Shown here one piece after another: positions 59,147-59,268 of a stretch of 64,000 nt of DNA. Origin of the DNA: Justusliebigvirus VEcB. A model generated the notes under the pieces. The model had not been told where the DNA came from, did not search any database, and saw nothing but the letters and a program-made list of their open reading frames with translations. How positions within the stretch are numbered: position 1 is the first letter of the stretch; each line of letters starts with the position of its first letter. The translations under genes and the position numbers were made by a program. The DNA is taken from the sequence record OZ035773.1; one strand, written 5' to 3'.

Positions 59147-59175
59147 TTGACATTTACTTAGTTTTTTGTTATAGT
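59147..59175 (+). promoter_or_regulatory. sigma70-like promoter (TTGACA 59147-59152, TATAGT 59170-59175)
   Basis: 17 nt spacer; directly upstream of atypical tRNA-like RNA. Confidence 0.5.
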
Positions 59176-59186
59176 CATTATGAAAA

Positions 59187-59268
59187 CGGGGTGTATCTCA
59201 CCTGACTTCTAATCAGGCGTTAACCGAGTAATTGGAGTATGCAGGTTCGAATCCTGTCACCCCGGCCA
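59187..59268 (+). tRNA. atypical tRNA-like RNA with Arg anticodon loop (TCT), no recognisable D-arm
   Basis: perfect 7 bp acceptor, anticodon hairpin cctga-cttctaa-tcagg, T-arm gcagg-ttcgaat-cctgt, CCA; only 7 nt between acceptor and anticodon stem, 23 nt before T-arm. Confidence 0.45.

What the first reader, a model, noticed from the sequence alone, without database searches (positions are those of the whole stretch)
59147..59268. Promoter-driven tRNA-like RNA with an Arg(UCU) anticodon arm but no D-arm
A near-consensus sigma70 promoter is followed by an 82 nt element with a perfect 7 bp acceptor stem, canonical T-arm and CCA. Only 7 nt separate the acceptor stem from the anticodon hairpin, and 23 nt of apparently unstructured sequence replace the normal variable loop. 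It may be a functional non-canonical tRNA, a tRNA-derived regulatory RNA or decoy (for example against anticodon nucleases), or a structured pseudogene.
Basis: seen in the sequence. Interest (0 to 1): 0.65.

Follow-up and report, generated by a model that had tools for sequence, protein, structure and literature searches.

The report
Phage arginine tRNA with rearranged D-arm
This overlooked phage gene most likely encodes a working arginine tRNA whose D-arm is split, with one strand before the anticodon arm and the other strand plus the D-loop after it; at least a hundred genes in unrelated phages share this layout, which matters because tRNA architecture is thought to be almost invariant outside mitochondria.

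Summary
A near-consensus sigma-70 promoter (59147-59175) precedes an 82-nt tRNA-like gene (59187-59268) with a 7-bp acceptor stem, a UCU anticodon arm, a canonical T-arm and G73-CCA.

The reading "no D-arm, 23 unstructured nt" is wrong. The 5' linker (U8 A9 U-CUC-A) pairs with GAG in the 3' segment. That GAG is followed by a typical tRNA-Arg D-loop (U-A14-A15-UU-G18-G19-A20) and by U48. So D-arm segment 10-21 lies after the anticodon arm and strand 22-25 lies before it.

Evidence:
- About 100 distinct relatives in viral contigs show compensatory changes in this helix and in the 15:48 tertiary pair.
- A covariance model built without the window's subclass scores the element at 65.8 bits, against 38.6 for Rfam's cloverleaf model.
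- 96 of 101 members carry Arg anticodons and have A20. The five Ile/Met-type members have U or C there.
- Homologues sit unannotated in the tRNA clusters of FelixO1, Mydo and a Streptomyces phage, and next to other tRNAs in PBECO4.

The phage has no other tRNA-Arg, and 24% of its Arg codons are AGA. Best explanation: a functional tRNA-Arg(UCU) with an internally permuted D/anticodon domain. I found no earlier description. Expression and charging are untested.

The parts
59147..59152 (+). -35 hexamer TTGACA of the dedicated promoter
   Evidence: 11 of 12 match, 17-nt spacer. Invariant in five phi92-like phages. The promoter is absent upstream of homologues in PBECO4 and Mydo, which follow another tRNA directly, so it is a local feature and not part of the family.
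59167..59175 (+). Extended -10 element: TGT followed by TATAGT
   Evidence: The hexamer ends 11 nt before the first base of the tRNA, so a leader of about 4-5 nt is expected (inference).
59187..59193 (+). Acceptor stem, 5' strand CGGGGUG (positions 1-7)
   Evidence: Pairs perfectly with 59258-59264. All 7 pairs show changes on both sides across the family. Identical to the acceptor 5' strand of the canonical T5/BF23 tRNA-Arg(UCU).
59194..59195 (+). U8 A9
   Evidence: Invariant in all 58 class-A and 28 class-B sequences. A role in a U8:A14 tertiary pair is inferred.
59196..59199 (+). UCUC: equivalent of the D-stem 3' strand (22-25). CUC (59197-59199) is the 5' strand of helix Y.
   Evidence: CUC pairs with GAG at 59226-59228. 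Covariation: pair 23:12 is paired in 57 of 57 cells with 4 pair types, pair 24:11 in 56 of 58 with 4 types, pair 25:10 in 33 of 58. Shifted registers give 21-36% paired against 89% in register. Aligned this way by a model trained without this subclass.
59200..59200 (+). A26-equivalent spacer
   Evidence: position only.
59201..59217 (+). Anticodon arm CCUGA-CUUCUAA-UCAGG, anticodon UCU at 59208-59210
   Evidence: The stem covaries. The loop is identical to the host tRNA-Arg(UCU) loop as tabulated for the related phage Sf14 (PMC12482277).
59218..59225 (+). Linker CGUUAACC (takes the place of 44-45 and leads into position 10)
   Evidence: The motif CRUUAA(N) is shared by the window's subclass: FelixO1, PBECO4, Mydo, Stanimal, L026, L157. 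Its role is unknown.
59226..59229 (+). GAGU: equivalent of the D-stem 5' strand (10-13). GAG is the 3' strand of helix Y.
   Evidence: U13 faces U22 (U.U or C.U in 62 of 70 members).
59230..59239 (+). D-loop-like segment AAUUGGAGUA (A14 A15 U U G18 G19 A20 G U A)
   Evidence: UA-R...GG-A is conserved throughout the family. The base after GG is A in the Arg members and U or C in all 5 Ile/Met-type members. Colinear with the D-loop of T5 tRNA-Arg once the segment is moved back.
59240..59240 (+). U48-equivalent, proposed Levitt-pair partner of A15 (59231)
   Evidence: The 15:48 columns read A:U 56 and G:C 2 in class A, and A:U 23, G:C 4, other 1 in class B.
59241..59257 (+). T-arm GCAGG-UUCGAAU-CCUGU
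   Evidence: Identical to the T-arm of T5/BF23 tRNA-Arg.
59258..59264 (+). Acceptor stem, 3' strand CACCCCG
59265..59268 (+). Discriminator G73 and encoded CCA
   Evidence: G73 or A73 in the six enterobacterial-phage copies read (window/phi92 G, PATM A, FelixO1 A, PBECO4 G, Mydo G). Both are allowed by E. coli Arg identity rules (PMC9976931).

Best explanation
The element is a bona fide phage tRNA-Arg(UCU) gene with a rearranged core. In an ordinary tRNA the order is acceptor - U8 A9 - D-stem 5' strand (10-13) - D-loop (14-21) - D-stem 3' strand (22-25) - anticodon arm - variable loop - T-arm. Here the order is acceptor - U8 A9 - [22-25: UCUC] - A26 - anticodon arm - linker - [10-13: GAGU] - [D-loop: AAUUGGAGUA] - U48 - T-arm.

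The two D-stem strands therefore pair around the anticodon arm (CUC with GAG). This extends the anticodon hairpin in the way the D-stem normally stacks on it. The D-loop, with G18 G19 A20, emerges 3' of that helix, where it can still meet the T-loop. This is equivalent to a circular permutation of the D/anticodon domain (10-45): joined 45 to 10 and opened between 21 and 22.

Shown:
- the helix, by covariation;
- conservation of the D-loop motif;
- covariation of the 15:48 pair;
- coupling of A20 to Arg anticodons;
- membership of a large phage family;
- the promoter.

Inferred:
- The RNA folds into an L-shape. In canonical tRNA the three new junctions (9 to 22, 45 to 10, 21 to 48) join residues that are already neighbours, through the 9:12:23 and 45:10:25 triples and the adjacent 8:14:21 and 15:48 layers (textbook yeast tRNA-Phe contacts, own knowledge).
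- It is transcribed by host RNA polymerase from its own promoter, trimmed by RNase P, and charged by host ArgRS through A20, C35, U36 and G73.
- It reads AGA (and AGG), which make up 24% and 6% of the phage's Arg codons and are rare in E. coli (own knowledge).
- It arose from a canonical phage tRNA-Arg by internal duplication and deletion.
For: 1. Covariation without any pairing requirement in the selection. In 70 regex-parsed members, pair 24:11 is Watson-Crick in 69 of 70 using all four pair types (0 of 5000 shuffles reach this). The correct register gives 0.89 paired against 0.21-0.36 for shifts.
2. MAFFT alignment plus count of structure pairs. Class A (58 sequences): all 3 helix pairs change on both sides, and 15:48 is A:U 56 / G:C 2. 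Class B (28 sequences) gives the same helix.
3. Out-of-sample model. R1, trained on 45 members excluding the window's subclass, scores the window element at 65.8 bits (E = 9e-17) with CUC/GAG placed in the helix. Ordinary tRNAs score 33 bits or less, and Rfam's cloverleaf model gives the element only 38.6.
4. Identity coupling. Of 101 distinct members, 96 carry Arg anticodons (UCU 59, UCG 14, ACG 14, CCU 7, GCG 2) with A after GG. The 5 with UAU, GAU or CAU have U or C there. A20 is the main determinant for E. coli ArgRS (PMC9976931).
5. Genomic role. The gene lies in a cluster of 16 ordinary tRNAs with no other Arg. A sister phage's whole genome is published with the same 16 and no Arg (PMC12210895). 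AGA is 24% of Arg codons. In 77 loci the permuted genes sit among a median of 8 tRNAs; canonical Arg tRNAs nearby have a different anticodon in 24 loci and the same one in 6.
6. Conservation. Full-length homologues at 80-86% identity occur in FelixO1, PBECO4, Mydo, BIS47, Ep030 and Streptomyces phage Stanimal. Within phi92-like phages all substitutions lie outside the mature body except G73/A73.
7. Shared acceptor/T domain. The canonical T5/BF23 tRNA-Arg(UCU) shares an identical acceptor 5' strand, U8 A9 and T-arm, and 6 of 7 acceptor 3' bases.
8. tRNAscan-SE's Arg isotype model is the best-scoring isotype for the gene in the same slot of phage Sf14 (PMC12482277).
Against: - There is no expression, processing or aminoacylation data for any family member.
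- Nearest-neighbour folding of the window sequence does not predict the helix. The proposed structure evaluates at -21.4 kcal/mol and the MFE at -26.3; the MFE instead forms a CCGA-GUAA-UUGG hairpin with about 0.9 pair probability. That hairpin is not conserved in FelixO1, PBECO4, Stanimal, L026 or L157, and the same algorithm also misfolds the canonical T5 tRNA.
- The helix has only 3 pairs, and the third (25:10) is paired in only 57-69% of members.
- The in-silico un-permuting test is weak. ARAGORN accepts 58 of 62 un-permuted sequences but also 36 of 62 with the moved segment shuffled and 45 of 62 with it reversed.
- The family is structurally heterogeneous. Class B has an extra helix involving U8 and A9, so a single 3D model may not fit all members.
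- In the window's subclass, UAU could pair with GUA (59237-59239). Both sides are invariant, so this cannot be tested.
- The L-shape and the tertiary contacts are inferred, not modelled.
Confidence: 0.75

Rival explanations
1. It is a tRNA-Arg mimic that is not used in translation: a decoy or inhibitor for a host tRNA-targeting defence nuclease or another tRNA-binding protein, or a tRNA-derived regulatory RNA. This is one of the first reader's alternatives.
For: Phage tRNAs have been proposed to counter tRNA-cleaving defences (PMC10264068, title and abstract as listed; the paper itself was not read). The unusual core could in principle block recognition by some enzyme. Several annotation pipelines fail to recognise it as a normal tRNA. 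No experimental data are available either way.
Against: Its anticodon loop is identical to the host's, so it shows none of the loop changes proposed for nuclease evasion. The acceptor stem, discriminator, CCA and T-arm are kept as in charged tRNAs. The position-20 base switches from A to U or C exactly when the anticodon switches from Arg to Ile/Met, which makes sense for synthetase recognition but not for a decoy. It fills the otherwise empty Arg slot of the phage tRNA set, and AGA is frequent in phage genes.
Confidence: 0.12
2. It is a truly D-armless tRNA, as in animal mitochondria. On this view the apparent helix and D-loop motif are incidental, and the 23 nt form an enlarged variable region.
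For: Rfam aligns it with the D-arm deleted. MFE folding leaves the 7-nt linker unpaired.
Against: Compensatory changes occur at two to three pairs between the linker and the 3' segment in about 90 independent sequences, with register-shift and shuffle controls. UA-R..GG-A is conserved and 15:48 covaries. The MFE hairpin is not conserved.
Confidence: 0.05
3. It is a decaying tRNA pseudogene, or the product of a local rearrangement, with no function.
For: phi92's own annotation ignores it and marks a neighbouring odd tRNA as a pseudogene.
Against: Full-length conservation from enterobacterial to Streptomyces phages. Compensatory evolution in all stems. The mature body is invariant among phi92-like phages while the flanks vary. 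It has a dedicated near-consensus promoter.
Confidence: 0.03
4. It is a precursor that is cut and religated into a canonical cloverleaf tRNA, analogous to the permuted tRNA genes of red algae.
For: All the parts of a canonical tRNA are present in a different order.
Against: The 5' and 3' acceptor strands are already in normal order, so the conversion would need two cuts and two ligations inside the core. I recognised no bulge-helix-bulge motifs by eye, though no dedicated search was run. Bacteria lack the splicing endonuclease (own knowledge). The covarying helix exists only in the unprocessed order.
Confidence: 0.02

Closest known systems
Canonical phage tRNA-Arg(UCU), e.g. T5/BF23 tRNA-Arg (NC_042564 13576-13650)
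   Same: Identical acceptor 5' strand, U8 A9 and T-arm; 6 of 7 acceptor 3' bases; G73-CCA; the same anticodon loop CUUCUAA; a D-loop of the type UAA..GGAG. Presumably the same job, supplying an AGA decoder.
   Different: T5's gene has the normal order D-stem/D-loop/D-stem followed by the anticodon arm, and ARAGORN calls it. In the window's gene, segment 10-21 lies after the anticodon arm. T5's tRNA scores only 29 bits on the permuted-architecture model, against 65.8 for the window's element.
D-arm-lacking mitochondrial tRNAs, e.g. mammalian mt tRNA-Ser(AGY) and nematode mt tRNAs; the de Bruijn and Klug 1983 model extends the anticodon stem by pairing the D-replacement loop with the extra loop (own knowledge; review PMC7609411)
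   Same: There is no hairpin between acceptor and anticodon stems. Bases 5' of the anticodon stem pair with bases 3' of it and lengthen the anticodon helix.
   Different: The phage RNAs keep a full D-loop motif (A14, R15, G18 G19, A20), a canonical T-loop and a 15:48 pair, so the elbow is probably intact. They occur in bacterial viruses that use the host's standard translation apparatus, not a co-evolved mitochondrial one.
Circularly permuted tRNA genes of Cyanidioschyzon merolae and other algae (PMC3978253, seen by title and abstract only)
   Same: Gene order differs from the canonical order by a permutation.
   Different: In the algal genes the whole molecule is permuted at the DNA level and processing restores a normal mature tRNA. 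Here only the internal D/anticodon domain is permuted, the termini are normal, and the mature RNA itself would carry the new topology.
tRNAs with novel cloverleaf structures: 8/4 and 9/3 allo-tRNAs (Mukai et al. 2017, PMC5389517)
   Same: Non-canonical tRNA architectures found in bacteria and phages through metagenomic surveys. An 8/4-like Ser(UGA) gene sits right next to this element.
   Different: Those differ in the lengths of the acceptor and T stems. This family has a normal 7/5 acceptor branch and differs in the connectivity of the D-arm.

Membership tests
tRNA (Rfam RF00005) | Score at or above the curated gathering threshold | tested here: met
   38.6 bits against a threshold of 29, the weakest of the 14 Rfam tRNA hits in the window.
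tRNA (Rfam RF00005) | 7-bp acceptor stem, 5-bp anticodon stem with a 7-nt loop and U33, 5-bp T-stem with a UUCRANY loop, discriminator and CCA | tested here: met
   All stems covary across the family.
tRNA (Rfam RF00005) | D-arm hairpin between position 9 and position 26 | tested here: not met
   Only 7 nt lie there. The model's 15 D-arm positions are replaced by 4 nt in the Rfam alignment, and ARAGORN makes no call. The D-arm's parts are present, but split around the anticodon arm.
tRNA (Rfam RF00005) | Tertiary-core nucleotides U8, A14, R15:Y48, G18 G19, T54-psi55-C56 | tested here: met
   The sequence motifs are present and 15:48 covaries. Whether the contacts actually form cannot be tested here.
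Arginine-accepting tRNA (E. coli-type identity) | A20 in the D-loop, the main ArgRS determinant | tested here: met
   GG-A at 59235-59237. A is present in the Arg members and U or C in all 5 non-Arg members. Identity rule from PMC9976931.
Arginine-accepting tRNA (E. coli-type identity) | C35, U36 (the review as read writes 'U/C36') and A/G73 | tested here: met
   Anticodon UCU and G73. A73 in PATM, EC_OE_11 and FelixO1.
Arginine-accepting tRNA (E. coli-type identity) | Is charged with arginine and decodes AGA/AGG | not testable with these tools
   Indirect only: it is the sole Arg gene in the phage tRNA set, AGA is 24% of Arg codons, and the Arg isotype model is the top scorer in Sf14.
D-armless (mitochondrial-type) tRNA | The D-arm is replaced by a short unpaired connector and D-loop elements are lost | tested here: not met
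   The connector pairs with the 3' segment and the D-loop motif is retained.
Class II tRNA (long variable arm) | A conserved stem-loop in the variable region | tested here: not met
   The only hairpin predicted there (CCGA-GUAA-UUGG) is not conserved in relatives.
Circularly permuted tRNA gene (algal or archaeal type) | The 3' half lies upstream of the 5' half, with processing motifs that restore a normal tRNA | tested here: not met
   The acceptor 5' and 3' strands are in normal order, and CCA is at the 3' end.
Permuted-D-domain phage tRNA family (defined here, model R1) | UA + N + 3-nt strand, anticodon arm, linker, complementary 3-nt strand + U-A-R..GG-N20, Y48, T-arm | tested here: met
   65.8 bits, E = 9e-17, with a model trained without the window's subclass. 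Other members score 43-87 bits and ordinary tRNAs 33 or less.

The most novel reading that the evidence does not exclude
Phages carry a widespread, previously undescribed class of translationally active tRNAs, mostly tRNA-Arg with some Ile/Met, whose D/anticodon domain is circularly permuted within the molecule. These would be natural topological isomers of tRNA that keep the L-shape, the identity elements and the tertiary core while changing strand connectivity. The class may be maintained because the altered core escapes some host enzyme that acts on canonical tRNA-Arg, such as a defence nuclease or a modification or quality-control enzyme.
Probability: 0.5. Interest if true: 0.9.

Novelty: new variant of a known kind. 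Interest (0 to 1): 0.78.

Why it matters
Outside animal mitochondria, and apart from a few special cases (tRNA-Sec, tRNA-Pyl, allo-tRNAs), the order of the cloverleaf's arms is treated as fixed. Gene finders, identity rules and structural models of synthetases, RNase P, EF-Tu and the ribosome all assume it.

If this family is active, it shows that the standard bacterial translation apparatus accepts a tRNA whose core strands are connected differently, provided the same tertiary layers can form. That has four consequences:
- It supplies a natural experiment on which parts of tRNA architecture are topology and which are geometry.
- It gives a new scaffold for engineered or orthogonal tRNAs.
- It gives a concrete reason why phage tRNA inventories are under-counted. 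This genus is published as having 16 tRNAs and no Arg, and the FelixO1, PBECO4, Mydo and Stanimal copies are unannotated.
- It raises a testable question: why is this layout almost confined to arginine tRNAs of viruses?

Tried and rejected
1. The MFE hairpin CCGA-GUAA-UUGG (GNRA loop) inside the 23 nt. Rejected because it breaks in FelixO1 and PBECO4 and is impossible in Stanimal, L026 and L157, although it is thermodynamically favoured in this sequence.
2. The ARAGORN un-permuting test as proof. Native sequences are called 0 of 62 times and un-permuted ones 58 of 62, but shuffled (36 of 62) and reversed (45 of 62) controls are also accepted. I keep it only as weak support.
3. My interim claim that the layout is exclusive to Arg. 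The model sweep corrected it by finding 5 Ile/Met-type members.
4. The promoter as a family feature. Rejected: only phi92-like phages have it.
5. The genome-contig scan. Of 20 hits, only 2 are real members, both on short MAG contigs (one of which also holds 8 other tRNAs). L242 and L244 have canonical D-arms with an intron-like insertion, L250 and L251 do not fit the permuted parse, and most others look like chance matches, though not every hit was examined.
6. Flanking ORFs. PHROGs of unknown function plus an HNH endonuclease, with no functional link.
7. Eight literature searches and two reviews. No description of this layout was found. The library covers only open-access papers and bioRxiv, so this is not proof of absence.
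8. A possible helix between U8 A9 U22 and GUA (59237-59239) in the window's subclass. It cannot be tested because both sides are invariant.

Full report
**What is there.** The window comes from a phi92-like E. coli myovirus (Justusliebigvirus; 98-99.8% identical to phi92, Paula, inny and others). At 59147-59175 lies the best sigma-70 match of the tRNA region: TTGACA, 17 nt, TATAGT, preceded by TG, 11 of 12. Eleven bases downstream begins an 82-nt element, 59187-59268: CGGGGUG | UAUCUCA | CCUGA CUUCUAA UCAGG | 23 nt | GCAGG UUCGAAU CCUGU | CACCCCG | G | CCA. Rfam's tRNA model hits it at 38.6 bits (threshold 29), but only by deleting the D-arm and inserting about 20 nt at the variable loop. ARAGORN does not report it among the 16 tRNAs of the cluster. 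Annotators have been inconsistent: PATM calls it "tRNA-Undet", Nernie calls it "tRNA-OTHER", and phi92 and Paula leave it unannotated.

**The two "unstructured" segments pair with each other.** A pattern scan of IMG/VR viral contigs, using the UCU anticodon loop plus a distant T-arm, returned dozens of unrelated contigs with the same layout. A second scan did not fix the anticodon.
- When parsed without any pairing requirement, the three bases that precede the anticodon stem by one position are complementary to the three bases just before a conserved U-A-R-(1-3 nt)-G-G-A motif. Examples are CGG/CCG, CUC/GAG (the window), CAG/CUG, CCC/GGG, ACC/GGU, CAC/GUG and AUG/CAU.
- In 70 sequences the middle pair is Watson-Crick in 69 and uses all four pair types. 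None of 5000 partner shuffles reaches this. The true register is 89% paired, against 21-36% for shifts of one to three positions.
- On a plain MAFFT alignment of 58 class-A members, the count of structure pairs finds changes on both sides at all three pairs: 57 of 57, 56 of 58 and 33 of 58 cells paired. The whole structure is 96.6% paired, against 36-46% when slid.

**The 3' segment is a D-loop.** The motif after the helix, U13-A14-R15-Y-(Y)-G18-G19-A20, is what follows the D-stem 5' strand in ordinary Arg tRNAs. When the window's 14-nt segment is moved back, the sequence is colinear with the T5/BF23 tRNA-Arg: GUAG-AG-UAAUUGGAG against GUAG-UC-UAA-GGGAG. The base after A14 covaries with the last base before the T-stem, as the R15:Y48 Levitt pair does: A:U 56 and G:C 2 in class A; A:U 23, G:C 4 and other 1 in class B.

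The order of parts is therefore: acceptor - U8 A9 - [22-25] - 26 - anticodon arm - linker - [10-13] - [14-21] - 48 - T-arm. This is a circular permutation of the D/anticodon domain inside an otherwise normal tRNA. In canonical tRNA, A9 contacts the 12:23 pair, residue 45 contacts the 10:25 pair, and A21 lies in the layer next to 15:48 (textbook tRNA-Phe contacts, own knowledge). The three new junctions (9 to 22, 45 to 10, 21 to 48) therefore connect residues that are already neighbours. That the L-shape is preserved is an inference. I could not model it.

**Out-of-sample test.** I built a covariance model of this architecture from 45 members, excluding the window's own subclass.
- It scores the window element at 65.8 bits (E about 9e-17) and places CUC and GAG in the helix.
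- The other tRNAs of the window score 25.9 or less, and the canonical T5 tRNA-Arg scores 29.1.
- The FelixO1, PBECO4, Mydo and Stanimal copies score 55-64.
- The permuted model thus explains the sequence far better than the cloverleaf model does (38.6 bits).

**Is it a working tRNA?** There is no experimental evidence, but several independent lines point that way.
- A model sweep of 200 fetched loci gave 101 distinct members. Of these, 96 carry Arg anticodons (UCU 59, UCG 14, ACG 14, CCU 7, GCG 2) and 5 carry UAU, GAU or CAU.
- The base after G18 G19 is A in the Arg members and U or C in all five others (Fisher p about 2e-5 even with regex mis-parses counted against the hypothesis). A20 is the principal determinant for E. 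coli ArgRS, together with C35, U36 (the review as read writes 'U/C36') and A/G73 (PMC9976931). The window has all of them.
- The phage has no other tRNA-Arg. A sister phage's complete genome is published with the same 16 tRNAs and no Arg (PMC12210895). AGA is 24% of Arg codons in the window's long ORFs.
- In 77 loci the permuted genes lie among a median of 8 ordinary tRNAs. Nearby canonical Arg tRNAs usually carry a different anticodon (24 loci against 6).
- Among phi92-like phages, all substitutions fall in the promoter spacer, leader or trailer, except G73/A73.
- In the FelixO1 relative Sf14, tRNAscan-SE lists Arg_TCT in the same slot with Arg as the best isotype model. That paper also tabulates the anticodon loop as identical to the host's (PMC12482277).

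**Distribution.** Full-length homologues of the window's subclass occur in FelixO1-like phages, the PBECO4 jumbo phages, Proteus phage Mydo, Klebsiella BIS47, Erwinia Ep030 and Streptomyces phage Stanimal. All the copies inspected are unannotated or overlapped by doubtful CDS calls. A scan of one genome from each of 185,579 prokaryotic species found only two members, both on short MAG contigs; one (L239) also holds 8 other tRNAs, as phage tRNA arrays do. Within the narrow pattern used, the family therefore looks viral.

**Heterogeneity and caveats.**
- Class B (8-nt 5' linker, long tail) has a second covarying helix between U8-A9-R-Y and R-Y-U-G after the D-loop motif: G:C 20 / A:U 7 and C:G 19 / U:A 5. 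A single 3D model may not fit all members.
- In the window's subclass, UAU could pair with GUA in the same way, but both sides are invariant.
- Nearest-neighbour folding of the window sequence prefers a CCGA-GUAA-UUGG hairpin. That hairpin is not conserved, and the same method also misfolds the canonical T5 tRNA.
- The ARAGORN un-permuting test is only weakly specific: 58 of 62 un-permuted sequences are called, but so are 36 of 62 with the moved segment shuffled.
- The promoter is specific to phi92-like phages.

**Comparison with what is known.**
- It works like an ordinary phage tRNA-Arg(UCU).
- It fails the cloverleaf's defining D-arm position.
- It is not a mitochondrial-type D-armless tRNA, because it keeps a helix and a D-loop.
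- It is not a class II tRNA, an allo-tRNA, or an algal-type permuted gene.
- The nearest precedent in concept is the old proposal that D-armless mt tRNA-Ser(AGY) extends its anticodon stem with flanking bases (own knowledge).
- Eight full-text searches and two reviews of non-canonical tRNAs revealed no description of this layout. The library is incomplete, so prior publication cannot be excluded.

**Verdict.** The most likely explanation (0.75) is a functional tRNA-Arg(UCU) with an internally permuted D/anticodon domain, belonging to a large and apparently undescribed phage family. Why the layout is maintained is unknown; it could be neutral topology or escape from a host enzyme.

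Noticed in passing
window 59332-59421 (+), with promoter-like site 59287-59316: The next gene, called tRNA-Ser(UGA) by ARAGORN, resembles tRNA-Sec (Rfam tRNA-Sec 35 bits, below threshold). It has a long D-stem with a 4-nt loop and an acceptor/T branch of the 8/4 type. This looks like the 8/4 tRNA-Ser or allo-tRNA type that Mukai et al. 2017 reported in bacteria and phages. An ARAGORN-called tRNA-Ser(UGA) also lies near the permuted Arg gene in FelixO1 (L230 3180-3269) and PBECO4 (L231 2411-2500); I did not compare those sequences with the window's. phi92 annotates it as a pseudogene.
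   Followed up: partly
window 58938-59013 (+): The 'tRNA-Met(CAU)' called by ARAGORN is not hit by Rfam's tRNA model. Its T-loop is AUUGUAA instead of UUCRANY, its D-loop (ACUGACGA) has no GG, and pair 7:66 is A.G. Both partners of the elbow interaction are changed together.
   Followed up: partly
window 61991-62055 (+): An unannotated tRNA-like element of about 64 nt: 6-of-7 acceptor stem, UAUGG-CUCCAAA-CCAUA hairpin (Trp CCA anticodon), T-arm, G-CCA, and only 7 nt where the D-arm should be. This would be a genuinely D-armless candidate. Model R1 gives it a weak hit (20 bits). It is conserved in about 60 phi92-like phages and, more distantly, in Klebsiella KP13-26 and Citrobacter Tr1. Its folding energy is unremarkable (z = +0.47).
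   Followed up: partly
L002 (phage PATM) 535-645; absent from the window: About half of the listed close relatives (the two-piece matches) carry about 125-127 extra bases in this region. In PATM, the only one read, the insertion lies between tRNA-Leu and the promoter. It contains another odd tRNA-like sequence: GCCUAGU/ACUAGGC acceptor, T-arm, a hairpin with loop CAUCAAA (UCA at the anticodon position but A33), and a 7-bp hairpin in the variable region. ARAGORN does not call it.
   Followed up: no
L051 4321-4397, L117 9723-9800 and 10358-10448, L203 2533-2609, L157 5506-5582: Members of the permuted architecture with Ile/Met-type anticodons (CAU, GAU, UAU) and with U or C instead of A after G18 G19. 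The layout is therefore not strictly confined to arginine tRNAs.
   Followed up: partly
28 class-B loci, e.g. L097 7937-8016 and L033 2919-2998: A subclass with an 8-nt 5' linker has an additional covarying helix between U8-A9-R-Y and R-Y-U-G downstream of the D-loop motif. This makes the D-loop motif an 8-nt bulge in a long arm and implies a somewhat different core from the window's subclass.
   Followed up: yes
L239 4767-4854 (MAG contig): A family member with a 17-nt linker that contains a small CUC-GUAAA-GAG hairpin, as if a mini variable arm had been inserted after the anticodon arm.
   Followed up: no
L230 2554-2946 (FelixO1 ORF45, 'HNH endonuclease'); L232 2551-2640 (Mydo CPT_Mydo_200): Annotated CDSs start inside, or overlap, the unannotated permuted tRNA-Arg gene. 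These starts or ORFs are probably mis-called.
   Followed up: no
Hits H10-H13 and H92 (MG065639, MG065645, MG065656, MG065689): Records labelled 'Campylobacter phage' (host C. jejuni) are 99.3-100% identical to this E. coli phage region. This suggests mislabelled or contaminant genomes.
   Followed up: no
window 58605-58634, 59147-59175, 59287-59316, 60640-60669: Four strong TTGACA-type promoter matches lie in the tRNA region. Three precede the unusual genes (the gp110/Met-like unit, the permuted Arg and the Sec-like Ser). This suggests the unusual genes are separate transcription units. An HNH homing-endonuclease-like ORF (60971-61336) also sits inside the cluster.
   Followed up: partly
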